In this document: positions 249 through 15,526 of the stretch, piece after piece | How the letters are laid out: the number at the start of each line of letters is the position of its first letter | Numbering within the stretch: the first letter of the stretch is position 1 | IMG/VR virus record: IMGVR_UViG_2767802041_000001 | Coordinates: 21,082 to 85,081 of that record | Direction: 5' to 3' (one strand) | From: a virus | Taxonomy: Duplodnaviria; Caudoviricetes | Length of the DNA: 64,000 bases | Made by a program: the position numbers and the translations under genes | The notes under the pieces: model-generated | Told to the model about the DNA's origin: nothing | What the model saw: only the letters and a program-made list of their open reading frames with translations | The model's database searches: none

Positions 249-959
249 TCAGGGGGCCTTCTCCACCGTCGCCGTGTCGATCCACCGGGCAAGGATGCTG
301 AACGCGGCCAACTGCTCCAGCGCCTCGTTCTCCTCCAACTCGTCACCGGCCTCGTGCGCGATCGGGTTCCGAATGCCCGCGTACACACCGCGGGCGAACG
401 CCGCCGCACCGTCGTGCCGGCTACGCCACGTGTCGCTGTCCTCCTTCGGCGCCAGACGCAGCCGCGGCTTCCCCGGCTCAGGATCCTTCGTGCTGAACGC
501 GTCCCCGAGGAGCTTCGACTCCGACAGATCCTTCCTGCCGACCTTCGCCTGCGCCTGGGCGTTCACCGCGACCGCAGCCATCCCTACGGCCTGCCGGTAG
601 TGGCCGCTCCCCCATAGGCCCTGCACGCTCCCCCACACCCACGGATGCAGAGTCGACGCGTCCAACTGCGGTGCGCCAGAGCCGAGGTTCTCGGCCAGCT
701 CCTGCTCGGCCCGCAACTGAGCGATTGCTCTAGTCGAAGCTTCCAGCTCCCGCCAGTAGCGATACGAGTTCTTCGGCCAGGCCGCCGTTCGCCAGGTCGG
801 CACCACTCTGTCGAGGATGTGTTCAACTACTTGCGCCTCCCCCTGGACATTCGCAATGGGGTAATTTCTTCTCCACGCAGACCCGGTCCAGGTGACGGAC
901 GCAGTGCGTATGAAGCTCTCAAGCTTCTCGATGGCCCATTCGTGGTTGATCTGAGTCAT
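249..959 (-). CDS. TIGR02391/Ymh-family HEPN-like protein (putative defence/Abi effector)
   Basis: LHPWVW...GHYRQAV...GIRNPIAHE...ALEQLAAFS pattern with an RxxxxH motif; ATG at 959 (MTQINHEW). Confidence 0.7.
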   Translation of the reverse strand: MTQINHEWAIEKLESFIRTASVTWTGSAWRRNYPIANVQGEAQVVEHILDRVVPTWRTAAWPKNSYRYWRELEASTRAIAQLRAEQELAENLGSGAPQLDASTLHPWVWGSVQGLWGSGHYRQAVGMAAVAVNAQAQAKVGRKDLSESKLLGDAFSTKDPEPGKPRLRLAPKEDSDTWRSRHDGAAAFARGVYAGIRNPIAHEAGDELEENEALEQLAAFSILARWIDTATVEKAP

Positions 960-2386: not shown

Positions 2387-2707
2387 ATGGCCGAGCCGAT
2401 CGTCACCACCACCCGCCACGAAGTCAGCATCTTCCCCCTCGATGACATCAACCGCCGCGCCTTCACCCTCTACGTCGAACGCCTCCGCTACCGCCGCCCC
2501 GGCGAAGGCGAGTGGCGTGTCATCGACGGCGTCTACGGCTACAACGAGCGCGCGCTCCCGGACACCGACGTGCGTGACGCCCCCGGCTTCGACGAGACCA
2601 CCGCCCTCGGCATCGCGAAGGAGGCCGCCCGCCACATCGTCGTCAACGGCATGTCCGCCACCGAGGTGTACGACCGCACCCGCCCCGCCCCCGAGGGGGC
2701 CCGGTGA
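2387..2707 (+). CDS. hypothetical protein
   Basis: AAGGA RBS, MAEPIVTTTRHEVSIF, strong codon bias. Confidence 0.7.
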   Translation: MAEPIVTTTRHEVSIFPLDDINRRAFTLYVERLRYRRPGEGEWRVIDGVYGYNERALPDTDVRDAPGFDETTALGIAKEAARHIVVNGMSATEVYDRTRPAPEGAR

Positions 2708-2856
2708 CCGGCCAGCCCGTCTGCCAGTGGTGCGGGCAGCCTCCCGTCGGCACACCCCGGTGGTGGGACGGGCGGCCACAGTGCGAAGACGTGTTCGCCT
2801 GCCAGCAGCGGGCCGTTGACCAGAGCGGGCACAGCGAAGGCGCGGCCGGCGTGTAG
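2704..2856 (+). CDS. 50-aa putative Zn-ribbon protein
   Basis: GTGA overlap with the upstream stop; CQWC...CEDVFAC. Confidence 0.45.
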   Translation: MTGQPVCQWCGQPPVGTPRWWDGRPQCEDVFACQQRAVDQSGHSEGAAGV

Positions 2857-3232
2857 CTCACCGGCCGCGCCTTCGACCCTGCCCCGCCCTGCCCCTGAAA
2901 GAGGGTCAGAGAAATGGCGGGAAGCCCTCTGGGCCACTTGGCGCGCTGCGATACGCCCAAGCGTTCCAATAGCTCCCCGCCACGTTCCGGACAGGTTGCG
3001 GGAATTCCCTGCTGCAAGACCGAAACCGAACACGCTTCACGGTTTGGTCGGGATTCCCACACATGCCCCACCCGCCCAGGACGCTGCGAAGATCCGCAGG
3101 CCAGCGAGGCACCAGCCCAGCATCGTAGGTAAACAGCGAGTTTTCTAGGGGAACTTTTCAGTATTAAAACCAGTGCCTACAACTAGGCTCACGGCGTGCC
3201 ACATGTCTCATACACCGGGGGAAAAGCAGAGC

Positions 3233-4069
3233 ATGAGCAAGGTAAGTAAGGGTGCCCTTCGTGAACTCCTGATGGAGCGTCGGGCGCTGATTGACCCCAA
3301 GGGACACGGCTTCATCCGCCCGACCAAACAGGGACGGCGAGCCCCCGGGCTGACACAACACCAGATCGACACGCTGACCAACCGCTCGGACGGCACGTAC
3401 CAGCGCCTGGAGTCCGGAACCTGGGCCAACCCTCCCGGCGACTACCTCCGCGACGTCGCAACCCTCCTCGGCCTCAACGAGCAGGAATGGACCAGCCTGT
3501 GCCGGTACGCGGGCATCGGCGACCCCCCAGGCCCCCTCACCCCCGAGTCCGGCAAACAAGTCCCCGGAGTGTGGCAGGAAGCCGTCGACGGCATGCTCCA
3601 CCCCGCCTACGTCACCGACGCCTCCTGGGAGCTCATAGCCCACAACCGGGAGTTCGCCCGCCTCTTCCCCGGCGGGCAGGTGCCCCGCAACACCATGCGA
3701 TGGATGGTGTTGGAGAAGGGCGGCCGGCGCATGCTCACCGACTGGCACACCGCCTGGGCCCCCCTCGTCCTCCCCCAACTCCGAGCCGCCCTCTCCACCC
3801 GCCCCGACGACCCGATCCTCCGCCAACTCGAGCAGGATGTTCTCGCCGACCCGGACTGTGCCCCCATCTGGTCCGGGGCGGTCGCCCACATCCACCCCGA
3901 TGGCGACGAGCGCCCTCTCCTCCACGCCGAGGACGGCCCCGGCTGGGTGACGATGTGCGCGGCGCAGCCGATGACCGCCCCCGGGGCCCGTCTGATCGTG
4001 CTGGTGTTCCATGCCGGGGAGTCCCGGGCGCACGCCCGCACCCCCGTCCTCCGCGCCGACTCGACCTGA
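3233..4069 (+). CDS. MmyB-family transcriptional regulator (XRE HTH plus ligand-binding PAS-like domain)
   Basis: LRELLMERRALIDP...GRRAPGLTQ...YQRLESG HTH; PAYVTDASWELIAHN...NTMRW ligand domain. Confidence 0.85.
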   Translation: MSKVSKGALRELLMERRALIDPKGHGFIRPTKQGRRAPGLTQHQIDTLTNRSDGTYQRLESGTWANPPGDYLRDVATLLGLNEQEWTSLCRYAGIGDPPGPLTPESGKQVPGVWQEAVDGMLHPAYVTDASWELIAHNREFARLFPGGQVPRNTMRWMVLEKGGRRMLTDWHTAWAPLVLPQLRAALSTRPDDPILRQLEQDVLADPDCAPIWSGAVAHIHPDGDERPLLHAEDGPGWVTMCAAQPMTAPGARLIVLVFHAGESRAHARTPVLRADST

Positions 4070-4090
4070 CGCACCAGCACGCCCCCGACC

Positions 4091-4132
4091 GAGGCCACCT
4101 GCGCGCACCACCCCCATCGCGCAGGTGGCCTC
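4091..4132 (+). terminator. perfect 15-bp stem-loop
   Basis: GAGGCCACCTGCGCG...CGCGCAGGTGGCCTC downstream of the MmyB-like gene. Confidence 0.6.
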
Positions 4133-4330
4133 CCCCATGCGCCGCCCCGCACCCGAGAGCACCCCCGCGCCCGCGGCCGCCACCCCACCGGGCGCACAGG
4201 CACCACCGGCCACAGCAACCACAAACAGACCGCCCGCCCCGTTCCCCACCCCGCTGATCAGGGGCAATACCGGCTGGCACGTGCCATATGTTGTGCAGAC
4301 CACCGCCGCCCAGGCCTGCCGGAGGATGTC

Positions 4331-5380
4331 GTGCCCGCCTACATAGCCCAACCCGTCACCGTGTTCCCTCAGCATCAGATCACCACGGCCGAGATCGCCG
4401 ACGACATCCGCCACCACCACCCCGACCACCCCAAGCTCGGTGCGATCCTCCGCATGCTCACGAACACCGGGGTCGCCACCCGGTACTTCACCCGCCCCCT
4501 GGCCGCCCCCACCGTCGCCGGCACCGCTGGGGTCGGCACCCGGGCGGCCGCAGCCTTCGGCGACGCCCTCGACCTCGCCACGGAAGCAGCCCGCCGCACC
4601 CTCACCCTTCACCGCCTGGCCCCGGTCGACGTCGACGCCATCATCACCACCCACTCCACCGGGTGGGCCGTCCCCAACCTCGACATCCACCTCATCAACT
4701 GGCTCGGGCTGCGCCCCGACGTACGGCGCATCGCACTGACCACCCTCGCCTGCGCCGGCGGCACCCACGCCCTGATTCGCGCCGTCGACATGGTCACCGC
4801 CCGCCCTGGCGCCACCGTCCTCGTCGTCGCCGCAGAGGTCATCTCCGCCGTGTACAACCACGCCGACGACGCCGTGGAGCACATGATCTACAAGGCGTTG
4901 TTCGGCGACAGCGCCGCCGCCACGATCGTCACCAGCAGCCACCGCGGCCCCGGACTGCACGTCGCCACCCCCGACGACACGTACGAGCACGTCCTCCCCG
5001 CCAGCCTCACCCGTTACAACGGAAGGGTCGACGCGACCGGGTTCCACTTCGACAGCACGAAGGACGCCCTCACCGCCGCGGACGACGTCCTCCCCGACCT
5101 GTTGAAGTGGCTCGGCCCCGAGCTCGTCGACTTCGGGGTCATTCACCCCGGATCGCAGCGCATCATCAACGACACCGCCCGCGCCCTCGGCCTCGACGCC
5201 CACGACACCCGGCACAGCACCGACACCCTTGCCGAGGAGGGCAACCTCGGCGGGCCGTCCGTGCTGCGCATCCTGGAACGCACCCATGGCAAACCCCCGA
5301 CTGCCGGGTCGCGCGGGGTGATGGTCGCCTACGGGCCCGGGTTCAACACCGCGGCAATCCGGGGAACCTGGCACGCCTGA
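4331..5380 (+). CDS. type III polyketide synthase (RppA/PhlD/germicidin synthase-like)
   Basis: Cys-His-Asn triad motifs LACAGG, IHPGS and GNLGGPS; LFGDSAAA; YGPGF; GGAGG RBS. Confidence 0.92.
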   Translation: MPAYIAQPVTVFPQHQITTAEIADDIRHHHPDHPKLGAILRMLTNTGVATRYFTRPLAAPTVAGTAGVGTRAAAAFGDALDLATEAARRTLTLHRLAPVDVDAIITTHSTGWAVPNLDIHLINWLGLRPDVRRIALTTLACAGGTHALIRAVDMVTARPGATVLVVAAEVISAVYNHADDAVEHMIYKALFGDSAAATIVTSSHRGPGLHVATPDDTYEHVLPASLTRYNGRVDATGFHFDSTKDALTAADDVLPDLLKWLGPELVDFGVIHPGSQRIINDTARALGLDAHDTRHSTDTLAEEGNLGGPSVLRILERTHGKPPTAGSRGVMVAYGPGFNTAAIRGTWHA

Positions 5381-5457: not shown

Positions 5458-5907
5458 ATGAGCCCTTCCCCTCGCTCCAGCGAGTCCAACCTGGTCGCCC
5501 ACGCCCGCCGCGAACTCCGCATCCTCGGCGAAGACCCCGACACCATCCGCGGCCTCTGCAAGGTCGTCCAAGCGTTCGCCAACATGGGCCACAGCGGCGG
5601 CAGCGCACCCCACGCCATCGCCTACCTGGAGCGCCTCCTGCGGTTCCAGCCCCTTACCGACCTCACCGACGACCCCGCCGAGTGGATCGACCGGTACGCC
5701 GAAGGCATGACCTCGACCCCTCTCTGGCAGTCCAACCGCAACAGCGAGGCGTTCTCCACCGACGGCGGGAAGACTTACTACCTCCTGTCCGAGCAGCAGG
5801 CCGCCGGGGACATCGCCACCACCCCGCTCCACCGCTCTACCGAGCTTCCGCGAGCAGAGATGACCATCACCACCTGGCCTGATGAGGCCGCGGTGAAGGA
5901 ATCATGA
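5458..5907 (+). CDS. conserved phage hypothetical protein
   Basis: SNLVAHARREL...GHSGGSA...PLTDLTDDPAEW...WQSNR. Confidence 0.75.
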   Translation: MSPSPRSSESNLVAHARRELRILGEDPDTIRGLCKVVQAFANMGHSGGSAPHAIAYLERLLRFQPLTDLTDDPAEWIDRYAEGMTSTPLWQSNRNSEAFSTDGGKTYYLLSEQQAAGDIATTPLHRSTELPRAEMTITTWPDEAAVKES

Positions 5908-6593
5908 GCGTCGCCCCGGAACCTGACCAGTCGGGCCTGAACGACTGGTACAAGGCAGGCTGCTCCCGTGCCTGCGCCAACCAGCACACCCTCCAGTGGG
6001 GGCGCTGCGCCCACGCCGAAGTGCCCACCGACGAATCCTTCATCGTCGCCAAAACCGCCCTCGCGACCCCAGAGTCCTGGCCCTACATCTGCGGCACCCC
6101 GCGCCACACCAAGCTTCTGGACTGGCTGCGCACACACGATATCGAACCCAGCTGCGTCTCCTCCGACGATCCGCTCAGCCTCGCCACCGGATCTGACGGC
6201 ACCCGGCTGATCGAGTACACGCAGTACCTCGTCACTGCGGAAGGTCACCGGTACCTGGACCCGAAGGACCGCACGGTCGCTGCCAAGGAAACTCGTCGCG
6301 CACCTGTGAAGACCGACCCCCCGCGGCCGAAGCGCGCCGACATCACCACCCTCGCGCTCCTCCAAGCAATCCACGACCACGCCACACGCCCCGTCCCGCT
6401 CGGGAAGTACCGGTGGGAGATCCCGGGCGCCTGGTGGACGCTGTGCACGGTTTACCCGGAGAAGGTGGTCACCGCGGCGTACGTCCGGGAGGACGACCGC
6501 GGGCACCTGGAGTGCGGTGTCAGCCTCCGTACGAGCTGGCTCACCGACGAAGGGCGGGCCCGCCTTGTCGAACTGCGAGGCGCCCCGATCTGA
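5904..6593 (+). CDS. hypothetical protein
   Basis: ATGA overlap with the upstream gene; 229 aa. Confidence 0.65.
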   Translation: MSVAPEPDQSGLNDWYKAGCSRACANQHTLQWGRCAHAEVPTDESFIVAKTALATPESWPYICGTPRHTKLLDWLRTHDIEPSCVSSDDPLSLATGSDGTRLIEYTQYLVTAEGHRYLDPKDRTVAAKETRRAPVKTDPPRPKRADITTLALLQAIHDHATRPVPLGKYRWEIPGAWWTLCTVYPEKVVTAAYVREDDRGHLECGVSLRTSWLTDEGRARLVELRGAPI

Positions 6594-6608: not shown

Positions 6609-7379
6609 CTACGGTGCGACACGTCCGTTGGTGTTGAACGCGGCGTGCGTGAGCGGCATCAGCCCCGCCCAGTGCGCCTCCATCAGCTCCCCCACCATCT
6701 CAATCTCCCGCTGAGGGAACGACGGGACCTTGGCATCGGGGTGGGTGGTGCGGAGCCCCAGGAAGTGCATCAGCGACCTGGCGTTGCACGTCGCGTACAT
6801 CGACGAGTACAGGCCGACCGGGAGGACCGACCGGGCGACCTCCCGGGCCACACCCGCGGCCAGCATGGCCTCGTAGGCGGCGTACGCCTCCCGGTACGCG
6901 ACCTCCATGTGCAGCCGCGTGAAGTCGTGCAGTCCAGCCGGGCCGTCCACGAACTCGTACCGCCCGGACTTTCCCTGCTGCACCAGCTTTCGGTCCTCGC
7001 CGGGCCAGTAGAACACCGGCTCCAGCTCCCGGTACCTCCCCGACTCCTCGTTGTACGACCAGCCGGCCCGGTGCCGCATGAACTCGCGGAACACGAAGAT
7101 CGGGGCGCTGATGAAGAACGTCATCGACGTGTGTTCCCAAGGTGATCCATGCCTGTCCCGCATGAGGTAGTTGATCAGCCCCCGGTCCCGGGCCGTCTGC
7201 GGGTGCTCCACCGCGGTGTGCTCCAGGTCGACCATGGCGCGGGCCGGGAAGCTCCGCTCACCCAAGGTGGACACCCGGGCCGCGAACAGCACGTCCGCGT
7301 CGGACGCGGACGCCTTCACCAGCTCCACGGTGACGTCGTCACGGAACTTCGGCTGGGCGGGCATGGGGGTGTCGGTCAC
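6609..7379 (-). CDS. thyX: flavin-dependent thymidylate synthase
   Basis: HGSPWEH, REFMRHRAGWSYNEESGRY (RHRx7S motif) and NARSLMHFLGLR; GGAG RBS plus GTG at 7379. Confidence 0.95.
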   Translation of the reverse strand: MTDTPMPAQPKFRDDVTVELVKASASDADVLFAARVSTLGERSFPARAMVDLEHTAVEHPQTARDRGLINYLMRDRHGSPWEHTSMTFFISAPIFVFREFMRHRAGWSYNEESGRYRELEPVFYWPGEDRKLVQQGKSGRYEFVDGPAGLHDFTRLHMEVAYREAYAAYEAMLAAGVAREVARSVLPVGLYSSMYATCNARSLMHFLGLRTTHPDAKVPSFPQREIEMVGELMEAHWAGLMPLTHAAFNTNGRVAP

Positions 7380-7595
7380 CAGGACTCCAGGAAAGGGAAG
7401 GGTACCGCTCGGTGACACCAATTTTACGGCGATTCGAGTCGGTATATCTCCCTGGTTCAGGCCCAGTTGCCCGACTCTGCACCGCGTTGTCAGTGCCCCG
7501 TGGCACGCTGACCTTCCGGTGGTGGTCCGCCTCGAAGCCGATGCCACCACCGGCCCACCCGCACCAAGGCGAGGACCCTTCCCATGGCACTGAAC

Positions 7596-7865
7596 TGACA
7601 CGAGGAGGTGGTCGAGGTTGGCCCGGGACCCGGGCATCCGCAGGTCGTGCCGTATCGCCCACCCCTGCGCCACCAGCGGCGCCACCATGCGGGCCGTCTC
7701 GGCTTCCCCGGCGGCACCGTGCTCCCACCGGGCCGCCACAGCGTCCGCGCGCCGCACACGGCCCGTACGCACCCCCAGGGCGGCGAGGAGACGCTGCCAC
7801 ACCCCACGACGGGCGTTCGCGCGCAGGACGGCGGCCTGGACGGCCGCACTGTTCCGAGTGGTCAC
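7596..7865 (-). pseudogene. truncated NERD-like nuclease-related gene
   Basis: WEHGAAGEAET...GWAIRHDLRMPGSRANLDHLLVS, then abrupt non-coding-like sequence. Confidence 0.6.
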
Positions 7866-8503
7866 CGGCCCGCCTCCTCGTTGAACGCCTCAACGGTGCG
7901 CACCGCAGCCCGATACCGGCGGGCCTTCGCAACGGCAGCGTCGTCCCAGCCGTGGATCCGCTGCATCTCCGCCATCGTCCCGTGCTCGCACGTCTCGTCG
8001 TGGACGTCCTCTTCGCAGTCCCAGCCGAGCAATACCGCCCACAGCCACGCGTCGACCCGGTACTCACCCCAGTCTCGGGAGCTGGTGGCCAGGAGGCGTT
8101 GCAGGCCCTCGAACATCGGGGCCAGCGTCCGCAACGTCTCCTCGGCCTGGGATGCGCGGAACGTCTGCGGGGCCCACCGCTGCATCGCAGCCCAGAACTG
8201 CTGTGCCGCCCTGTCCGGCTCGTACCCCTCCCGGTACTCCAGGGTCCCCTCCGGGCGGATCGTGACCAGTGGGCCGACACCGTCGTGGACGCTGACTGTC
8301 GGCTGCGGCCACGGCGAAGGTGCTTCGTCCGCCGAGCCCCCGAGGAGGTAGTCGATGCCCTCGACGGTGGCCCAGATGTCGTGGTGCTCGGGGTACAGCT
8401 GGTGGGCTTCGGCGCGTTCGCGGAGGACGGTTTCGGTGAGCCCGGTCGACGTGATCAACCGGGCACGCTGCTCCCGCAACTCGGCGGGCGTCTTCTCGGT
8501 CAT
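7862..8503 (-). CDS. hypothetical protein
   Basis: MTEKTPAELREQ; coupled overlaps at both ends. Confidence 0.7.
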   Translation of the reverse strand: MTEKTPAELREQRARLITSTGLTETVLRERAEAHQLYPEHHDIWATVEGIDYLLGGSADEAPSPWPQPTVSVHDGVGPLVTIRPEGTLEYREGYEPDRAAQQFWAAMQRWAPQTFRASQAEETLRTLAPMFEGLQRLLATSSRDWGEYRVDAWLWAVLLGWDCEEDVHDETCEHGTMAEMQRIHGWDDAAVAKARRYRAAVRTVEAFNEEAGR

Positions 8504-8973
8504 GAGGTGGTCTCCGTGCTGTCGAGGGCGTTGAGGGTCGGGCAGGGGTGAGGGATGAACGCCACCCACTCCTCGCTCTTGGGGCCCGTACTGCGGCGTA
8601 CCGAGCACTCACCGCACCAGACCTGCCCCATGTGCTGGACGGGCGCGTGAAGGACCGCGATGCGCTGCACCGCTGCCAGAGCCGCCTCACCCCGGGCCAA
8701 CTCGGAATTGATGCTCTGAGTCAGCGGGCTCCCGAACTGCTTCTCCATGGGCGATGGAGCCCACCGCCGCACCGCGTCCCAGAACAGGCGGGCCGCCTCG
8801 TCCGGCTCGTACCCGGGCCCGTGCTCCAGGCGCCCGTCCGGGTGGATAGTGACGAGCGGGCCATCAGCTCCGGGGATGGTGATGCTTTCTGTGGATCTGA
8901 CGTCCACGGCCGTGATCTGCATGACCTTGGTGCTATCGACGGTGACGAGGGACGGTTCAGGCTGCTCGATCAT
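8500..8973 (-). CDS. hypothetical protein
   Basis: MIEQPEPS; shares a GPLVTIxPxG..GYEPDxAA..FW segment with the downstream gene. Confidence 0.7.
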   Translation of the reverse strand: MIEQPEPSLVTVDSTKVMQITAVDVRSTESITIPGADGPLVTIHPDGRLEHGPGYEPDEAARLFWDAVRRWAPSPMEKQFGSPLTQSINSELARGEAALAAVQRIAVLHAPVQHMGQVWCGECSVRRSTGPKSEEWVAFIPHPCPTLNALDSTETTS

Positions 8974-9194
8974 GCTGCGGTCTCCTTGGGGTTGTAGGTG
9001 TCGGGTCCGGGGATGGTGGTGACACGCCGCCCCCGGTGCCAGGTCGGCCAGTAGTGGCGTGGCGGGGTGTCGTACAGGACGGGCAGGGTGTGGTTGCCCC
9101 GGCAGGATCGTGCGGGGCCGTGGGGCCAGAGGCCGGCCGCGGTGACGGTGATGAACCGGTGGCAGTACGCGCACTGGCCACGGCGGGCGGTCAC
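8970..9194 (-). CDS. small Cys/His protein
   Basis: GTG overlap; CAYC...H...C. Confidence 0.5.
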   Translation of the reverse strand: MTARRGQCAYCHRFITVTAAGLWPHGPARSCRGNHTLPVLYDTPPRHYWPTWHRGRRVTTIPGPDTYNPKETAA

Positions 9195-10024
9195 GGGGTG
9201 TCGTCCAGGTCGTGGCCGCCGAGGACGAGGCGCATCCGCCCCTTCTTCACCACCGGGTCCTGGCCGGGCTTCGGCCAGTCGTCCGCACACAGCCCATGCG
9301 TCGGCGGCTCCCAGAACCGCCCTGCGTAGTGCCGGTAGACCTTCTCCCAGTCCGCCTTGAAGTAGCAGGGCAGCAGCCCACCCTTGTTCGGCAACGGGTC
9401 CGGGGCGGTCTCGTTCTGGGCGCGGAGCTGTTCGGTGACCCGCTCGGCATGGTCCTGGTGCCGCCGGCAGAACCAGTGCGCCGACTCCCAGCCCGTGACC
9501 GGGTCCTTCTCCAGCACGCGGTATCGGGAGTTGGCCCCGCATACCCCGTCCTCGGTGCGCCAGTCCCGGGGCGGCGTGTACGCGGCCATCGCCTCCGCCT
9601 TCAACGCGGCAAGGTCGGGCGGCAGCTCGTAGGGGCGGATCGGGGAAGGGGCGTGAGGATCGGGCTCGTACGGGACGGCGGGCTTGGGCTGGTAGGGGCG
9701 GAGACGCGGGGCCTGGCATGCCACGGTGTGGGCGTGCACGTCCACGTCCCGGGGTGTCTCGTACCGGGGGGCGTCGGCGGCCATCAGCCCGTCGTAGCGG
9801 GGCCTGCCTGCCGCGGTGCGCCCCAGGACTCGGCGGGCCTCCCGGAGCGGGCTGACACCGTTCTCTCGGTCGTTGAGGTACACGGCGTACGCGATGGCGA
9901 GGAGCAGTTCGCGGGCCTCGGGGGTGGCGCGCTCGTCGTTGTAGATGGCGCGGACGATCTCTTCGTAAGTGCGGGGCTTCTTCTCCTGCCGGGGGACGGC
10001 GGTGAGGCTGCGGGGTGCTCCCAT
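9191..10024 (-). CDS. hypothetical protein
   Basis: AGGAG RBS; 277 aa. Confidence 0.7.
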   Translation of the reverse strand: MGAPRSLTAVPRQEKKPRTYEEIVRAIYNDERATPEARELLLAIAYAVYLNDRENGVSPLREARRVLGRTAAGRPRYDGLMAADAPRYETPRDVDVHAHTVACQAPRLRPYQPKPAVPYEPDPHAPSPIRPYELPPDLAALKAEAMAAYTPPRDWRTEDGVCGANSRYRVLEKDPVTGWESAHWFCRRHQDHAERVTEQLRAQNETAPDPLPNKGGLLPCYFKADWEKVYRHYAGRFWEPPTHGLCADDWPKPGQDPVVKKGRMRLVLGGHDLDDTP

Positions 10025-10171
10025 GGCGTTCTCCTACGTGATGTGACGGTGGGTTACAGGGCGGCGAGCCCCGGGCGGGGCTTACCGGCGGGTAGGGGTC
10101 TCCGCCCCGGGAAAGTCGGATACTTCGATCAAGGAAGCGAGGCGGGAACAGCTCACACCCCCCGCCCCCAA

Positions 10172-10555
10172 CTACGCTGCGTTGCGTTTCCGGGCCTCGC
10201 GGCGGTCCGCCCGGTACACCCGCTCCCCCGCCCAGCACGCCTCGCACGGCTCCTCACCCCGGTACACGTGGGCGGCGAACCCCGCGTGGTCCCCGTGCCG
10301 GCGCGGCCGCCCGTCCAGCACCCCTGCCTGGCAGGCCAGCAGCACGGCGTGCGCCATGTTCCGGGCCTTCAACGCGGTGAGGATGACTTGCTGGTGGTAG
10401 TGGACGGTGCTGACGGCGAGGTGCATGGTGTGGGCGGTCTCGGGGATGGTGAGCCCGTTGGCGGCGTGGTGAAGGACTTCGGTCTGTCGGGGGCTGAGAG
10501 AGACTGCGGGCCCGCCACCCGAAGGCGACGGGCCCACCCGGGAGAGGGCGGTCAC
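10172..10555 (-). CDS. LuxR-type HTH regulator with C-terminal His/Cys motif
   Basis: LSPRQTEVLHHAANGLTIPETAHTMHLAVSTVHYH; HG...CEAC. Confidence 0.8.
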   Translation of the reverse strand: MTALSRVGPSPSGGGPAVSLSPRQTEVLHHAANGLTIPETAHTMHLAVSTVHYHQQVILTALKARNMAHAVLLACQAGVLDGRPRRHGDHAGFAAHVYRGEEPCEACWAGERVYRADRREARKRNAA

Positions 10556-11103
10556 AAGGTCCGCCCGGCCAGGAACTCGTGCATCACCCGGTTGTGCCGG
10601 GCGTCCGCGAGCGCGTTGTGCAGGCCTGCGGGCTGGTTCGGCATCTCCGGGCCACCCGCCTGCCAGCGCAGCTGCTCCAGCTCGTTGAACCACTGCGGGA
10701 TCTGCTCAGGCATCACGGACCAGTCGTTGTCCCACAGGGAGTGGAGGCGGCACATGTCCTGCGCCCCGTACCAGGCCCACAGGTGCGTGGTCTCGGCGTC
10801 CGCGGCCGCGAAATAGTCGGCAACGTCCTGCGCGATCTGAGGGGCCGTCTTCACGCTGCGGTCGCCCTTGTCGAGGCGCGGCCACTTCCCGTGCAGCCGG
10901 ATGTCCCCGTGGGGCTTCGGCAGGGACGGCCACACGTTCGCCATCATCCACTCGCTGCGGCCGAGGGCCTTGATGTCGAAGTCGCGGTGGACGGCGTAGT
11001 AGTCGACGCCCTGGTCGTCGGTGAGGCCGATGGATACCAGGCCCTTGAGGGTCGGGTCGGCGGGCAGAAACTCACAGTCGAGATACACGTTGCGGATGGT
11101 CAT
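10552..11103 (-). CDS. DEDD 3'-5' exoribonuclease (RNase AS/Rv2179c-like)
   Basis: YLDCEF...SIG...WAWYGAQD...HNALADA. Confidence 0.85.
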   Translation of the reverse strand: MTIRNVYLDCEFLPADPTLKGLVSIGLTDDQGVDYYAVHRDFDIKALGRSEWMMANVWPSLPKPHGDIRLHGKWPRLDKGDRSVKTAPQIAQDVADYFAAADAETTHLWAWYGAQDMCRLHSLWDNDWSVMPEQIPQWFNELEQLRWQAGGPEMPNQPAGLHNALADARHNRVMHEFLAGRTL

Positions 11104-11106
11104 GGG

Positions 11107-11478
11107 TCAGTTCTCCTTCGGTGCGTTGGCCAGCTGGAGCAGGACGGCGGCGTGGCAGTGGTCGGGCTCGCCGGGCGCGGGGAGCGGGCACCAGCACATG
11201 AGGTTCTGGCCCGCGAGGGTGGGCGCGTCGGTGATCAGGCGGTCGCGGCGGTCGTCCATCTCCTGTCGCTGCTCGGTCGTGATGGTCGGCGCGTGCACCT
11301 CGTAGCTGTTGTTCTCCAGCCATTCGCGGTACAGGGCGGTGGCGTGCTCCCGATTGGTGGCATCCGAGCCGACGATGAACGGGTTGCCGTAGCGAGAGCC
11401 GCGTCCGACGTAGATGGCTCCGGCAGGGGCACGCCACCCCTTGGTGCGGCGGCGCTGGATACGGGCAGGCGTGGCCAT
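11107..11478 (-). CDS. DUF4326 domain protein
   Basis: RIQRRRTKGWR...YVGRGSRYGNPF...LMCWC...CHAAVL. Confidence 0.85.
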   Translation of the reverse strand: MATPARIQRRRTKGWRAPAGAIYVGRGSRYGNPFIVGSDATNREHATALYREWLENNSYEVHAPTITTEQRQEMDDRRDRLITDAPTLAGQNLMCWCPLPAPGEPDHCHAAVLLQLANAPKEN

Positions 11479-11798
11479 CACTGCTCCTTCGGGGCGGCGG
11501 GCGGGAGCCCGTTGATGGTCAGTTCGCCATACGCGTCGACCTCGTTGGTCCAGTAGTCCGTGGTGGCGTGCCAGTGGAGGGTGACCGGGACAGGCTCCAT
11601 GGAGTACGCGTCGTCGGTCCACTCAGCGGCCGGGAGTCCGCAGGCGGCGTGCCGGAGCATCACCGACCCGGCGTCGACCTCCATGAGGTACTGGTCGTCG
11701 GGCTGAGGGCACTGGCAGGTGGTGTACGCGTCGGCCAGGTCCTCTTCGTCACCGGTGGGCGGGTCGACGGGCTCAAAGTTGATCAGTGGCACGGTCAC
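11478..11798 (-). CDS. acidic hypothetical protein
   Basis: Coupled GTG start; codon bias. Confidence 0.6.
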   Translation of the reverse strand: MTVPLINFEPVDPPTGDEEDLADAYTTCQCPQPDDQYLMEVDAGSVMLRHAACGLPAAEWTDDAYSMEPVPVTLHWHATTDYWTNEVDAYGELTINGLPPAAPKEQ

Positions 11799-11965
11799 TG
11801 CTCCTTGCGGTTGGCGCGGCGGGCGCGCATGCGGGCCTTGATCTGGTCCTGGGTGGGCTGCGTCCACTGGTGCCACCCAGCGGGCGGCTTCCACTGCCGC
11901 ATGTGCTCGCGCTGGTCGATGCCGCAGTGCTGGCAGCCGGACGGGTTCGGGGTGCGGGTGGTCAC
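11795..11965 (-). CDS. small Cys/His protein
   Basis: PSGCQHCGIDQREH...HQWTQP; coupled overlaps. Confidence 0.6.
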   Translation of the reverse strand: MTTRTPNPSGCQHCGIDQREHMRQWKPPAGWHQWTQPTQDQIKARMRARRANRKEQ

Positions 11966-14306: not shown

Positions 14307-14861
14307 TCAGGACGCTTCACGGATGTCGCCGACGGCCACCGGAGGCAGCCACCGCCCCTCCGCCCGGGCCCGCGTCTTCGCCCTGTCCCACGCCCGCTTC
14401 ACCGACCCCCGGTCCATCCCGAGGCGCTCCGCAACGTCGTCGTACGTCATGCCCCGCCGGATACCGGTCTCGATCGCGAGGCGCCGCTCGTCCCGGTTCA
14501 GCTCCACGGCCGGACCCGGGCCCAGGGCGCGCAGTACCGCGGACGTGTCGATGCCGTACCCCTTCGGCTTCACCACCGGGGCCGCATCCCGCACCGTGCG
14601 GACCACCGACAGCGGCGGGGCTGCCGGCTGCCCGTGCTCGTCGAACGTGACCCATGAAAGGGCGTCCTTCAAGCCGCGGTCCGGGTCCGCCAACGCGGCC
14701 AGGAGGACCGTGACCGCTTCCAGTTCGTGCCGGGTCAGGCCACGCAGCCGGGTCTTGATGTCGTCCGCAGACCCCTCGTGCACGTCCACCACCAGACCGG
14801 CAGCTTCGGGCAGGAGCGCTTCGACCATGTCGCCACGCTGCTCTACGGTCAGGGCAGTCAT
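14307..14861 (-). CDS. HTH DNA-binding protein
   Basis: C-terminal [21 protein letters not shown]. Confidence 0.65.
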
Positions 14862-15526
14862 GACGCCTCCCCCGCCCGCTCCGCAGCGCGCAGCACGTCC
14901 TTCACAGCCCGCCTACCCGACTCCCCGGACACACCCAGGTACGCGGCAATGTCCGCATACCTGGCCCGCATCCCCCGAAGCCGCAGCATCACGTCCAGGT
15001 AGTCGCCGGCCAACCGGACCCGCAGAGCCCGCGGGTCACCACGCCACACCACCCTCGGGGCGTCACCACCCGACCACCACACCGCGACCCGCACCGTAAC
15101 CGCGTCCACGAGCAGCCCGTCACGGTGCAAGGCACGCACCATGCCGTCCAGCGACCCGCACGACGACCGCAACCGGGACAACCGGTACAGCCACCGCGGC
15201 GACACCAACATGCGGGCCATCTCCCAGTTCGGGGAACCGCCCAGCAGCTCCTCCAACTCCAACGCCCGCCGCTGCGACGCATCCAACCCGCCGCCGATCC
15301 CCCACCGGTACACACCCTCGTCGTACGACCGGGTCGACTGAAGGCACTCGACGATCACGGGGCACTGGGCGCACGCCTCACGGGCCCGGTCCTGACCGGC
15401 CTTCGACGTGGTGTAGAAGTCCTCCGCGTCCACGTCCTCGGCACGGCACCGGGCGCGAAGTTTCCAGTCCGGCGGAGGCGCGGCGATTGTTGTGTCGCGG
15501 CGGGCTTCGAGGTTGAGGATCGTCAT
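14858..15526 (-). CDS. WhiB-family regulator with C-terminal extension/HTH
   Basis: WKLRARC...ACAQCPVIVECL...WGIGGG; YADIAAYLGVS. Confidence 0.8.
   Translation of the reverse strand: MTILNLEARRDTTIAAPPPDWKLRARCRAEDVDAEDFYTTSKAGQDRAREACAQCPVIVECLQSTRSYDEGVYRWGIGGGLDASQRRALELEELLGGSPNWEMARMLVSPRWLYRLSRLRSSCGSLDGMVRALHRDGLLVDAVTVRVAVWWSGGDAPRVVWRGDPRALRVRLAGDYLDVMLRLRGMRARYADIAAYLGVSGESGRRAVKDVLRAAERAGEAS

What the first reader, a model, noticed from the sequence alone, without database searches (positions are those of the whole stretch)
3150..5380. Phage-borne type III PKS plus MmyB-like ligand-binding regulator: candidate chemical signalling circuit
Seen: an intact type III PKS (Cys-His-Asn motifs) directly downstream of an XRE/MmyB-type regulator, among phage hypothetical genes and with no tailoring or export genes. 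Established: stand-alone type III PKSs make diffusible pyrones or phenols (germicidin, THN, phloroglucinol), and MmyB-family proteins have a PAS-like pocket for hydrophobic ligands. Inference: a synthase/receptor pair resembling luxI/luxR, which could let the phage-plasmid count lysogens, gate lysis versus lysogeny, or alter host germination and development.
Basis: partly seen in the sequence, partly recalled or inferred. Interest (0 to 1): 0.85.

Follow-up and report, generated by a model that had tools for sequence, protein, structure and literature searches.

The report
Violapyrone gene pair on phage-plasmid
The two genes are a further copy of the already studied vioB/vioA pair, a regulator and a small polyketide synthase that make alkyl-pyrone compounds, carried as cargo on a Streptomyces virus that also lives as a plasmid; a signalling role for the virus remains an untested idea.

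Summary
Window 3233-4069 (+) encodes an MmyB-like regulator (Xre HTH plus PAS-like ligand domain). Window 4331-5380 (+) encodes an intact type III PKS with Cys141/His272/Asn305. Both lie on an 85-kb pZL12-family Streptomyces phage-plasmid.

The pair is not new. It is an orthologue (75% and 65% protein identity to the pCQ3 copy) of the vioA/vioB cluster of S. somaliensis. There, knockouts and heterologous expression showed that VioA alone makes violapyrones (3-methyl-4-hydroxy-6-alkyl-alpha-pyrones) and that VioB is a negative regulator (PMC4924298, PMC5898002). This scan reached the same reading before on other DNA. That note gave me the lead, and I checked it here.

My own work adds these points:
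- The roughly 2.5-kb cassette is the unit that moves.
- Regulator and synthase co-diverge.
- Both are under purifying selection.
- Copies have switched between phage-plasmids and large (chromosomal) contigs at least six times.
- Most relatives in sampled species genomes are not linked to a pZL12-like capsid gene.
- I found no conserved operator, and no sign that the regulator controls other phage genes.

The luxI/luxR-like reading is therefore only partly supported. Functional coupling is shown in the orthologue. Ligand identity and any phage-level role are untested.

The parts
2835..2875 (+). Perfect 15-bp-stem hairpin at the 5' edge of the conserved cassette. It may be an insulating terminator; that function is inferred.
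   Evidence: Inverted repeat I1. A stable hairpin stands at the aligned position in 17 of 21 lineages at z <= -2.3 against 100 shuffles.
2876..3232 (+). Conserved non-coding region upstream of the regulator. It holds a -10-like TAGGCT (3184-3189) and a T-tract/A-tract dyad (3154-3170) over the -35 position. Promoter and operator roles are inferred.
   Evidence: Conserved blocks across phage-plasmid and chromosomal copies. The consensus promoter scan found nothing. RNAalifold found no shared fold. Rfam found nothing above threshold.
3233..4069 (+). vioB-like regulator, 278 aa: Xre-type HTH plus MmyB-like PAS-type ligand-binding domain.
   Evidence: Pfam HTH_31 and MLTR_LBD. AlphaFold2 model with pLDDT 87.3; best PDB fold match is 3pxp MltR, E 3.8e-10 over 281 columns. 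65% identity to the pCQ3 regulator, which the paper gives as 94% identical to VioB. dN/dS 0.09-0.34.
4091..4132 (+). Perfect 15-bp-stem hairpin after the regulator gene, terminator-like. It implies a separate promoter for the PKS.
   Evidence: I3. RNA fold -36.1 kcal/mol, z -4.71, 0 of 200 shuffles as stable.
3195..3206 (+). First copy of the 12-mer CGTGCCAYATGT, 6 nt downstream of the regulator's -10-like hexamer.
   Evidence: Only two copies in the 64-kb window and in the rest of the element at <=1 mismatch. Not conserved in other lineages.
4280..4291 (+). Second copy of the 12-mer. It overlaps the palindrome TGGCACGTGCCA (4275-4286) and the -10-like TATGTT (4287-4292) of the PKS.
   Evidence: A TAnnnT element stands at the matching place before the PKS start in most of the lineages printed, read by eye.
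4331..5380 (+). vioA-like type III polyketide synthase, 349 aa: predicted alkyl-alpha-pyrone (violapyrone-type) synthase.
   Evidence: Pfam. Cys141/His272/Asn305. 75% identity to pCQ3.110c WP_012840496.1, which the paper gives as 95% identical to VioA. L190, Y229 and S242 are kept and I174 is V. dN/dS 0.22-0.38.

Best explanation
This is a copy of the two-gene violapyrone cassette (vioB regulator, vioA synthase), carried as accessory cargo by a pZL12-family Streptomyces phage-plasmid. By orthology, the synthase takes beta-ketoacyl starters from host fatty-acid metabolism and condenses them with methylmalonyl-CoA. The products are 3-methyl-4-hydroxy-6-alkyl-alpha-pyrones, made without any tailoring enzyme. 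By orthology, the MmyB-like regulator holds synthase expression down. Each gene has its own promoter region, and the regulator gene is bracketed by two strong hairpins. My inference is that a hydrophobic ligand in the PAS-like pocket relieves repression; the ligand could be the pyrone itself, an acyl precursor or a host signal. Shown in the orthologue: product class, sufficiency of the synthase alone, negative regulation. Shown here: orthology, intact catalytic and mutagenesis-tested residues, regulator fold, co-inheritance, purifying selection, and movement of the cassette between phage-plasmids and chromosomes. Inferred: the ligand, the operator, and what the compound does for the element or the lysogen.
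For: Literature: PMC4924298 (abstract, sections 4 and 11 read). vioA and vioB lie on a circular plasmid of about 85 kb. The vioA knockout loses violapyrone B. The vioB knockout gains about eightfold. Knockouts of flanking ORFs have no effect. PMC5898002 (passages and section 9): vioA alone under a constitutive promoter gives 14 violapyrones in S. coelicolor M1146. I174A and Y229A are severely defective and S242A is inactive. Link to this window: the paper's reference protein WP_012840496.1 is the PKS of plasmid pCQ3. The window PKS and regulator are 75% and 65% identical to the pCQ3 pair. pCQ3 carries a capsid protein 88.7% identical to the window's. pCQ3-like copies L045 and L046 fall in the same phage-plasmid clade as the window. 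The pCQ3-type regulator also has MLTR_LBD at 47.5 bits. The window enzyme keeps L190, Y229 and S242. The unit behaves as a cassette. The regulator is directly upstream in 41 of 41 loci with upstream DNA. DNA homology between phage-plasmid and chromosomal copies starts 110-400 bp upstream of the regulator and ends at the PKS stop. Flanks are otherwise unrelated.
Against: No experiment exists for this copy. 75% and 65% identity leave room for a different product spectrum or regulatory sign. VioA position 174 is Val here instead of Ile. No RNA data were available. I could not define a conserved operator. Regulator orthologues at about 60% identity occur without a PKS on linear plasmids, so the regulator is not tied to this synthase in every case. 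I did not see the VioA or VioB sequences themselves, so the link runs through pCQ3 and the identities stated in the paper.
Confidence: 0.8

Rival explanations
1. Signal-and-receptor circuit. The pyrone diffuses between hyphae and binds the regulator, releasing repression in a positive loop. The element uses this to sense lysogen density, to gate induction, or to alter host germination or development.
For: The regulator has a PAS-like pocket of the kind that held myristic acid in 3pxp. The products are amphiphilic, like that ligand. Synthase and regulator co-diverge. Germicidin, made by the related stand-alone enzyme Gcs, is described as an autoregulator of germination. A 40%-identical PKS on an S. 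anulatus linear plasmid lies beside an ScbR-family autoregulator receptor gene.
Against: No binding data exist. The cassette works in chromosomes without any phage around it. The candidate operator 12-mer occurs only at the pair's own two promoters in the whole element and is not conserved. The pair does not lie beside the recombinase region of the element. In the vio papers the only activities reported are weak antibacterial and anti-influenza effects.
Confidence: 0.1
2. Conflict function. The pyrone, or the operon it heads, serves phage-host or phage-phage conflict, for example exclusion of other phages or competitors of the lysogen, or support of counter-defence.
For: The gene 77 bp downstream on the same strand is a Tad3-family Thoeris inhibitor (Pfam 2.4e-33; PDB 9b7d Tad3, E 0.0031). 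I saw no strong hairpin in between (read by eye), so co-transcription is possible. The upstream neighbour at 249-959 gives weak matches to defence-system models. Violapyrones inhibit MRSA at 25 ug/mL at best.
Against: The Tad3-like gene accompanies the pair only in the closest relatives: 3 loci (L042, L044, L049) of 46 examined. Chromosomal copies have unrelated neighbours. Neither protein matches PADLOC or PHROGs families.
Confidence: 0.07
3. Same enzyme family but a different product or regulatory logic. The window enzyme would make another pyrone or resorcinol, or the regulator would activate rather than repress, because the pair has diverged from vioA/vioB.
For: Identity to the pCQ3 copy is 75% for the PKS and only 65% for the regulator. 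Position 174 differs. The paper reports that host background changes the product spectrum. MmyB itself is described as an activator.
Against: Same clade, same gene order, same element family. The mutagenesis-tested Y229 and S242 are kept. Purifying selection acts on both genes.
Confidence: 0.1

Closest known systems
vioB-vioA violapyrone cluster of Streptomyces somaliensis SCSIO ZH66 (Huang 2016, PMC4924298; Hou 2018, PMC5898002)
   Same: Two genes only: an XRE-type regulator beside a 350-aa type III PKS on a circular plasmid of about 85 kb. The window proteins are 75% and 65% identical to the pCQ3 pair, which the paper gives as 94-95% identical to VioA and VioB. They fall in the same tree clade. 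L190, Y229 and S242 are kept.
   Different: This is a diverged copy whose product and regulation are untested. Val stands at position 174. A Tad3-like gene lies downstream instead of the small ORFs listed in the paper. The vio papers call the replicon a plasmid and never mention phage or MmyB. Here the replicon is shown to be a phage-plasmid and the regulator an MmyB-like protein.
pZL12 / phage ZL12 genes pZL12.99 and pZL12.100, and the pSLE1 type III PKS
   Same: PKS 89% and regulator 92% identical to the ZL12 pair, with the same order. They are annotated 'transcriptional regulator' and 'type III polyketide synthase'. The PKS on pSLE1 and pZL12 was noted in PMC4487206. Type III PKS genes found only in plasmid-borne prophages were noted in PMC10023795.
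   Different: In the passages I read, those papers treat the PKS as an orphan of unknown product and do not link it to violapyrones or to its regulator.
Cpz6 (presulficidin synthase of the caprazamycin cluster), DpyA and Gcs (germicidin synthase)
   Same: All are bacterial type III PKSs that make alkyl-pyrones from fatty-acid-derived starters. The paper gives VioA as 53% identical to Cpz6 and 36% to DpyA, clustering with Gcs. Gcs (3v7i) is the second-best solved match of the window enzyme, E 1.7e-40.
   Different: Cpz6 sits inside a large cluster, where its product relays sulfate. Gcs is chromosomal. None of the texts I read describes an MmyB-like partner for them.
RppA / THN synthase (1u0m)
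   Same: It is the best solved sequence match (E 4.3e-45), with the same triad.
   Different: It is a paralogue, not an orthologue. Two genomes that hold the cassette (G001, G003) also hold a separate RppA-like gene, only 35% identical to the window enzyme. The S. somaliensis RppA-type gene was not needed for violapyrone.
MmyB / MltR family regulators (3pxp; PMC3406030)
   Same: Xre HTH plus PAS-like ligand domain, by Pfam and by fold. They are typically placed next to the gene they control.
   Different: 15 of 16 S. coelicolor paralogues are transcribed divergently from the target; here the genes are in tandem. MmyB is described as an activator, VioB as a negative regulator.
luxI/luxR, Streptomyces butyrolactone or furan synthase-receptor pairs, and phage arbitrium (recalled, not from a call)
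   Same: A small-molecule synthase gene lies next to a ligand-binding transcription factor gene on a mobile element.
   Different: There is no homology to any of these families in the Pfam scans. No evidence shows that the product is the ligand or that phage decisions are controlled.

Membership tests
vioA/vioB violapyrone cluster | Two-gene unit: the regulator gene next to the type III PKS gene, with flanking genes dispensable | tested here: met
   Regulator directly upstream on the same strand in the window and in 41 of 41 related loci with upstream DNA. Only the pair is shared with chromosomal loci.
vioA/vioB violapyrone cluster | Orthology of the synthase to VioA | tested here: met
   75% identity to WP_012840496.1 of pCQ3, which the paper states is 95% identical to VioA. 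Same clade as the pCQ3-like L045 and L046. The VioA sequence itself was not seen.
vioA/vioB violapyrone cluster | Residues shown by mutagenesis to matter in VioA (I174, Y229, S242; L190 neutral) | tested here: met
   The window has V174, L190, Y229 and S242. pCQ3 has exactly I174, L190, Y229 and S242, which validates the numbering. I174V is conservative, and V is the commonest residue in the family (48 of 73).
vioA/vioB violapyrone cluster | Product is a 3-methyl-4-hydroxy-6-alkyl-alpha-pyrone | not testable with these tools
   Needs expression and LC-MS or NMR.
vioA/vioB violapyrone cluster | The regulator acts negatively on the synthase | not testable with these tools
   Shown only for vioB by knockout. 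No RNA holder was listed for this element.
Type III polyketide synthase | Chalcone/stilbene synthase N and C domains above the curated cut-offs | tested here: met
   72.7 bits against 27 and 29.3 bits against 27.
Type III polyketide synthase | Cys-His-Asn catalytic triad | tested here: met
   C141, H272 and N305 align to the triad motifs of 1u0m and are invariant in 75 of 75 sequences.
MmyB-like (MltR) regulators | Xre-type HTH plus MLTR ligand-binding domain | tested here: met
   HTH_31 at 28.2 bits against 27; MLTR_LBD at 65.3 bits against 26.3.
MmyB-like (MltR) regulators | Fold of 3pxp | tested here: met
   Model pLDDT 87.3. 3pxp is the top PDB match, E 3.8e-10 over 281 columns, TM 0.45; the next matches are PAS domains. 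phmmer against PDB sequences found nothing.
MmyB-like (MltR) regulators | Binds a hydrophobic small ligand | not testable with these tools
   Only 3pxp with myristic acid is on record.
Autoinducer synthase-receptor circuit (luxI/luxR-like or butyrolactone-like) | The regulator binds the product of the adjacent synthase | not testable with these tools
   No binding data are in the papers read.
Autoinducer synthase-receptor circuit (luxI/luxR-like or butyrolactone-like) | The regulator controls genes beyond the synthase, such as phage lysis-lysogeny genes | tested here: inconclusive
   The only candidate shared site occurs just at the two promoters of the pair in the whole element. It is not conserved elsewhere, so the true operator is unknown.
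RppA / THN synthase | Orthology to RppA | tested here: not met
   A separate 35%-identical RppA-like gene stands in two of the three cassette-bearing genomes searched (G001, G003; none at E <= 1e-10 in G002).
pZL12-type phage-plasmid | Phage structural and lysis genes together with plasmid partition genes on one replicon of about 85-95 kb | tested here: met
   Terminase, capsid, tail, amidase, ParA/ParB and a recombinase in the identical 85,024-bp record. 86.6% DNA identity to phage ZL12 over 41% of the first 12 kb. That pZL12 forms plaques is recalled from Zhong 2010, a paper that is not held.

The most novel reading that the evidence does not exclude
Violapyrones could be a diffusible signal with the MmyB-like VioB-type protein as their receptor: a ligand-released repressor loop. 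It would be spread among Streptomyces by temperate phage-plasmids, which would use it to sense related lysogens or to tune host development (germination, sporulation) and their own induction. That would be a non-peptide chemical communication module shared between phages and host chromosomes.
Probability: 0.1. Interest if true: 0.8.

Novelty: new member of a known kind. Interest (0 to 1): 0.35.

Why it matters
The genes themselves are explained, so this copy adds little biochemistry. Two links are missing from the texts I read.

First, the 'plasmid-situated' violapyrone cluster sits on temperate phage-plasmids of the pZL12 family. The vio papers never mention phage. In the passages I read, the phage and plasmid papers treat the PKS as an orphan. 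My search for 'violapyrone' with 'phage' found six papers. None has either word in its title or abstract, and the one I opened does not link them.

Second, VioB belongs to the MmyB family, which has a ligand pocket.

Together these make a concrete question testable in harmless laboratory strains. Why do about three quarters of these phage-plasmids (26 of 34 in PLSDB) keep a regulated alkyl-pyrone synthase under purifying selection? And is its product sensed by its own regulator?

Tried and rejected
1. A shared operator. The 12-mer CGTGCCAYATGT stands before both genes and nowhere else in the element. Across 43 sequences (the window and 42 loci), only the window and L009 beat all 30 shuffles, at non-equivalent positions. 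That is about what chance gives, so I do not treat it as an operator. The palindrome TGGCACGTGCCA is no commoner than chance at 2 mismatches.

2. A structured leader RNA upstream of the regulator. About 430 bp are conserved. RNAalifold gave only 5 pairs at -1.6 kcal/mol, and Rfam gave nothing near threshold. Only the local 5' hairpin holds.

3. Consensus sigma-70 promoters: none found. The -10-like elements I name were read by eye from alignments.

4. bldA control: no TTA codon in 79 PKS genes. Of 58 regulator genes only L016 has one, in its run-on frame.

5. Expression: no RNA holder was listed for the stretch, and read laying was not used.

6. PHROGs and PADLOC gave nothing for either protein. 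NCBIfam gave only sub-threshold DpgA and FabH matches.

7. Reading the enzyme as a THN synthase was rejected.

8. My own literature searches before one search did not find the vio papers. The lead came from the scan's earlier notes. Zhong 2010 is not held. Supplementary tables of the vio papers were not seen, including Table S3, which lists 21 vioAB loci, and Figures S16 and S17. They may bear on distribution and on the residue alignment.

9. Monophyly of phage-plasmid copies was rejected (AU p 4.6e-89). The tree is a 'quick' tree. 18 near-duplicate rows, 6 partial or duplicate rows and a few skipped loci were left out, and 12 rows of unknown context were not counted.

10. Names given by sources for 120 listed relatives are generic, such as PhlD or type III PKS.
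Full report
What is there. The window is 70% G+C. Its first 12 kb match the 85,024-bp record NZ_CP070261.1 of Streptomyces californicus at 100%; the window runs across that record's ends. They match phage ZL12 at 86.6% over 41%. The window's own record is an 85,081-base virus record. The identical plasmid record carries a terminase, major capsid protein, tail genes, an amidase, ParA/ParB, a tyrosine recombinase, a DnaB-like helicase and thyX. This is therefore a phage-plasmid of the pZL12 kind.

The two genes. The regulator is at 3233-4069 (+), 278 aa from the RefSeq start. It has HTH_31 and the MmyB-like ligand-binding domain above Pfam's cut-offs. The synthase is at 4331-5380 (+), 349 aa. 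It has both chalcone/stilbene synthase domains above cut-off. Its Cys141/His272/Asn305 align to the triad of THNS and are invariant in 75 of 75 aligned sequences. An AlphaFold2 model of the regulator, built from 29 sequences, has pLDDT 87.3. Its best PDB match is 3pxp, the MmyB-like regulator MltR (E 3.8e-10, 281 columns), followed by PAS domains.

Anatomy.
- A perfect 15-bp-stem hairpin lies at 2835-2875 and another at 4091-4132. The second folds at -36.1 kcal/mol, z -4.7. The regulator gene is thus bracketed by terminator-like hairpins, and the PKS should have its own promoter.
- A TAnnnT element stands before the PKS start in most of the lineages printed (read by eye). In the window it is TATGTT at 4287-4292, 38 nt before the start codon.
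- Upstream of the regulator, about 430 bp of non-coding DNA are conserved in phage-plasmid and chromosomal copies alike.
- That region begins with a hairpin, stable in 17 of 21 lineages. It contains a T-tract/A-tract dyad over the -35 position and a -10-like TAGGCT (3184-3189).
- No shared RNA fold, Rfam family or consensus promoter was found. The promoter and operator assignments are my inference.

What it is. My own literature searches showed that the PKS on pZL12-like plasmids had been noticed as an orphan. [quoted passage not shown] PMC10023795 says that type III PKSs were found only in prophages on plasmids. The scan's earlier notes then pointed to the violapyrone cluster, and I checked that claim.

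Huang 2016 (PMC4924298; abstract and sections 4 and 11 read) reports the following.
- S. somaliensis SCSIO ZH66 has a type III PKS, VioA (350 aa), and an XRE-family regulator, VioB (272 aa), on a circular plasmid of about 85 kb.
- The vioA knockout loses violapyrone B.
- The vioB knockout makes about eightfold more, plus four analogues.
- Knockouts of flanking ORFs change nothing, so the cluster is just these two genes.
- VioA is 95% identical to pCQ3.110c (WP_012840496.1) of Streptomyces sp. W9. VioB is 94-95% identical to the W9 and W75 regulators.

Hou 2018 (PMC5898002; passages and section 9) adds three points. vioA alone under a constitutive promoter gives 14 violapyrones in S. coelicolor M1146. 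VioA groups with Cpz6, DpyA and Gcs. I174A and Y229A are severely defective and S242A is dead.

In the PLSDB record of pCQ3, the tblastn hit of the window PKS is that very accession. The window PKS and regulator are 75% and 65% identical to the pCQ3 pair. pCQ3's capsid protein is 88.7% identical to the window's. The pCQ3-like copies L045 and L046 lie in the same clade as the window. The window enzyme has V174, L190, Y229 and S242. The pCQ3-type regulator also carries the MmyB-like domain.

I conclude that the window pair is an orthologue of vioB/vioA. The link runs through pCQ3 and the identities printed in the paper, because I did not see the VioA sequence itself.

What my analysis adds.
(a) Coupling. 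The regulator is directly upstream on the same strand in 41 of 41 loci with upstream DNA. 45 loci were fetched; 3 are cut by contig ends, and 1 is a 30%-identity Myxococcales hit without the regulator. Pairwise identities of the two proteins correlate (Spearman 0.86, 54 loci, 1431 pairs). dN/dS is 0.22-0.38 for the PKS and 0.09-0.34 for the regulator in ten pairs.

(b) Spread. 60 of 401 sampled Streptomycetaceae species genomes hold a homologue at E <= 1e-60. Of the 30 best loci, each with 1.5-kb flanks:
- 13 have the regulator adjacent and co-directional;
- 4 more have a partial co-directional match at the flank's edge;
- 3 have a divergent MmyB-like gene;
- 10 have none.
The 10 without a regulator are all at 51% PKS identity or less.

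(c) Context. Only 4 of those 60 genomes have the PKS on the same contig, within 60 kb, as a pZL12-like capsid gene. In most large-contig loci only the pair, about 1.9 kb, is shared with the element. Chromosomal neighbours are ordinary genes: MFS, oxidoreductase, TetR, SDR and an acyltransferase. Conversely, 26 of 34 PLSDB plasmids with a related capsid gene carry the PKS. Only the top 60 of 186 PKS-matching records were listed, so the other 8 could hold distant relatives. By my count, 43 of the 120 listed protein clusters have a longest contig of 85-108 kb.

(d) Movement. On a quick maximum-likelihood tree of 57 rows, phage-plasmid copies fall in at least four places. The label changes at least 6 times between 17 phage-plasmid and 28 large-contig rows, and their monophyly is rejected (AU p 4.6e-89). 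DNA homology between phage-plasmid and chromosomal copies starts 110-400 bp upstream of the regulator and ends at the PKS stop codon. Capsid identity and PKS identity are uncoupled; for example CP109516 has a PKS at 88.8% and a capsid at 40.3%. The cassette, not the phage, is the unit that moves.

How it most likely works. By orthology, the synthase condenses fatty-acid-derived beta-ketoacyl starters with methylmalonyl-CoA to alkyl-alpha-pyrones, and the regulator keeps its expression low. The PAS-like pocket suggests a hydrophobic ligand that relieves repression. Whether that ligand is the pyrone, an acyl precursor or a host signal is unknown.

It would resemble the ligand-released repressors of Streptomyces autoregulator systems (recalled) rather than luxR. 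Four findings weigh against a phage-specific circuit:
- the cassette lives without phages;
- regulator orthologues at about 60% identity occur without a PKS on linear plasmids;
- the only shared motif, CGTGCCAYATGT at 3195 and 4280, is confined to the pair within the whole element;
- that motif is not conserved elsewhere.

Surroundings. The gene 77 bp downstream (5458-5907) is a Tad3-family protein (Pfam 2.4e-33; weak match to PDB 9b7d). Tad3 is described as an inhibitor that binds the ThsB sensor of type I Thoeris (PMC13728456, passages). It accompanies the pair only in the closest relatives. The element also encodes a WhiB-family protein. This is of note because deletion of host wblA lowered vioB and raised vioA transcripts in S. 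somaliensis.

Verdict. This is a real, intact and conserved gene pair, and it is a new member of a characterised cluster. The scan reached this reading before on other DNA. The open question is what a regulated alkyl-pyrone does for a phage-plasmid.

Noticed in passing
window 5458-5907 (+): A 149-aa gene directly downstream of the PKS is a Tad3-family protein (type I Thoeris inhibitor): Pfam PF25185 at 114.8 bits, E 2.4e-33; phrog_14697; weak match to PDB 9b7d. It is present next to the pair only in the closest relatives (L042, L044, L049).
   Followed up: partly
window 5904-6593 (+): A 229-aa ORF overlaps the stop of the Tad3-like gene and has no Pfam, PHROGs or PADLOC family. It converges on thyX (6609-7379, minus strand).
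   Followed up: partly
window 249-959 (-): A TIGR02391 / Hypoth_Ymh protein gives weak PADLOC matches to a HEPN component (Aga_HEPN, E 9.8e-07) and to PD-Lambda-3_B. It may be a defence-type gene on the element.
   Followed up: no
window 2704-2855 (+): A small ORF of about 49 aa, not annotated in RefSeq, with a CxxC ... CxxxxxC pattern. It overlaps the stop of the upstream gene and ends just before the hairpin at 2835-2875.
   Followed up: no
window 14858-15526 (-): The element encodes its own WhiB-family regulator (Pfam Whib, 44 bits). In S. somaliensis, deletion of host wblA lowered vioB and raised vioA transcripts, so an element-borne Wbl protein might bear on the cassette.
   Followed up: no
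window 2800-3232 and the aligned stretches of 20 loci (alignment A3): About 430 bp of non-coding DNA upstream of the regulator are conserved between phage-plasmid and chromosomal copies. They include blocks such as GCAGGCCAGC and AGCATG and a near-palindrome GGGAATTCCC. No RNA fold or known family explains them.
   Followed up: partly
L086 (NZ_CP108296.1) and L087 (NZ_CP108254.1): Regulator orthologues at about 60% identity stand without any PKS on linear plasmids. They are followed by a small ORF, a DUF3995 protein, a sigma factor and (on L086) an SRPBCC protein.
   Followed up: partly
L052 (NZ_CP109342.1, S. anulatus linear plasmid), 6800-8441: A 40%-identical type III PKS converges on an ScbR-family autoregulator-binding regulator gene instead of following an MmyB-like gene.
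   Followed up: no
L018, L024, L028, L030 (chromosomal copies), about 9060-11900: Downstream of the chromosomal cassette lies a conserved run: TetR (MftR-type C-terminal domain), a short-chain dehydrogenase and a membrane acyltransferase_3. It might tailor or respond to the pyrone in those genomes.
   Followed up: partly
L016, about 7082-9124: The regulator reading frame runs on for 677 aa across the PKS gene, from a lost stop or a frameshift. This is the only such copy seen.
   Followed up: no
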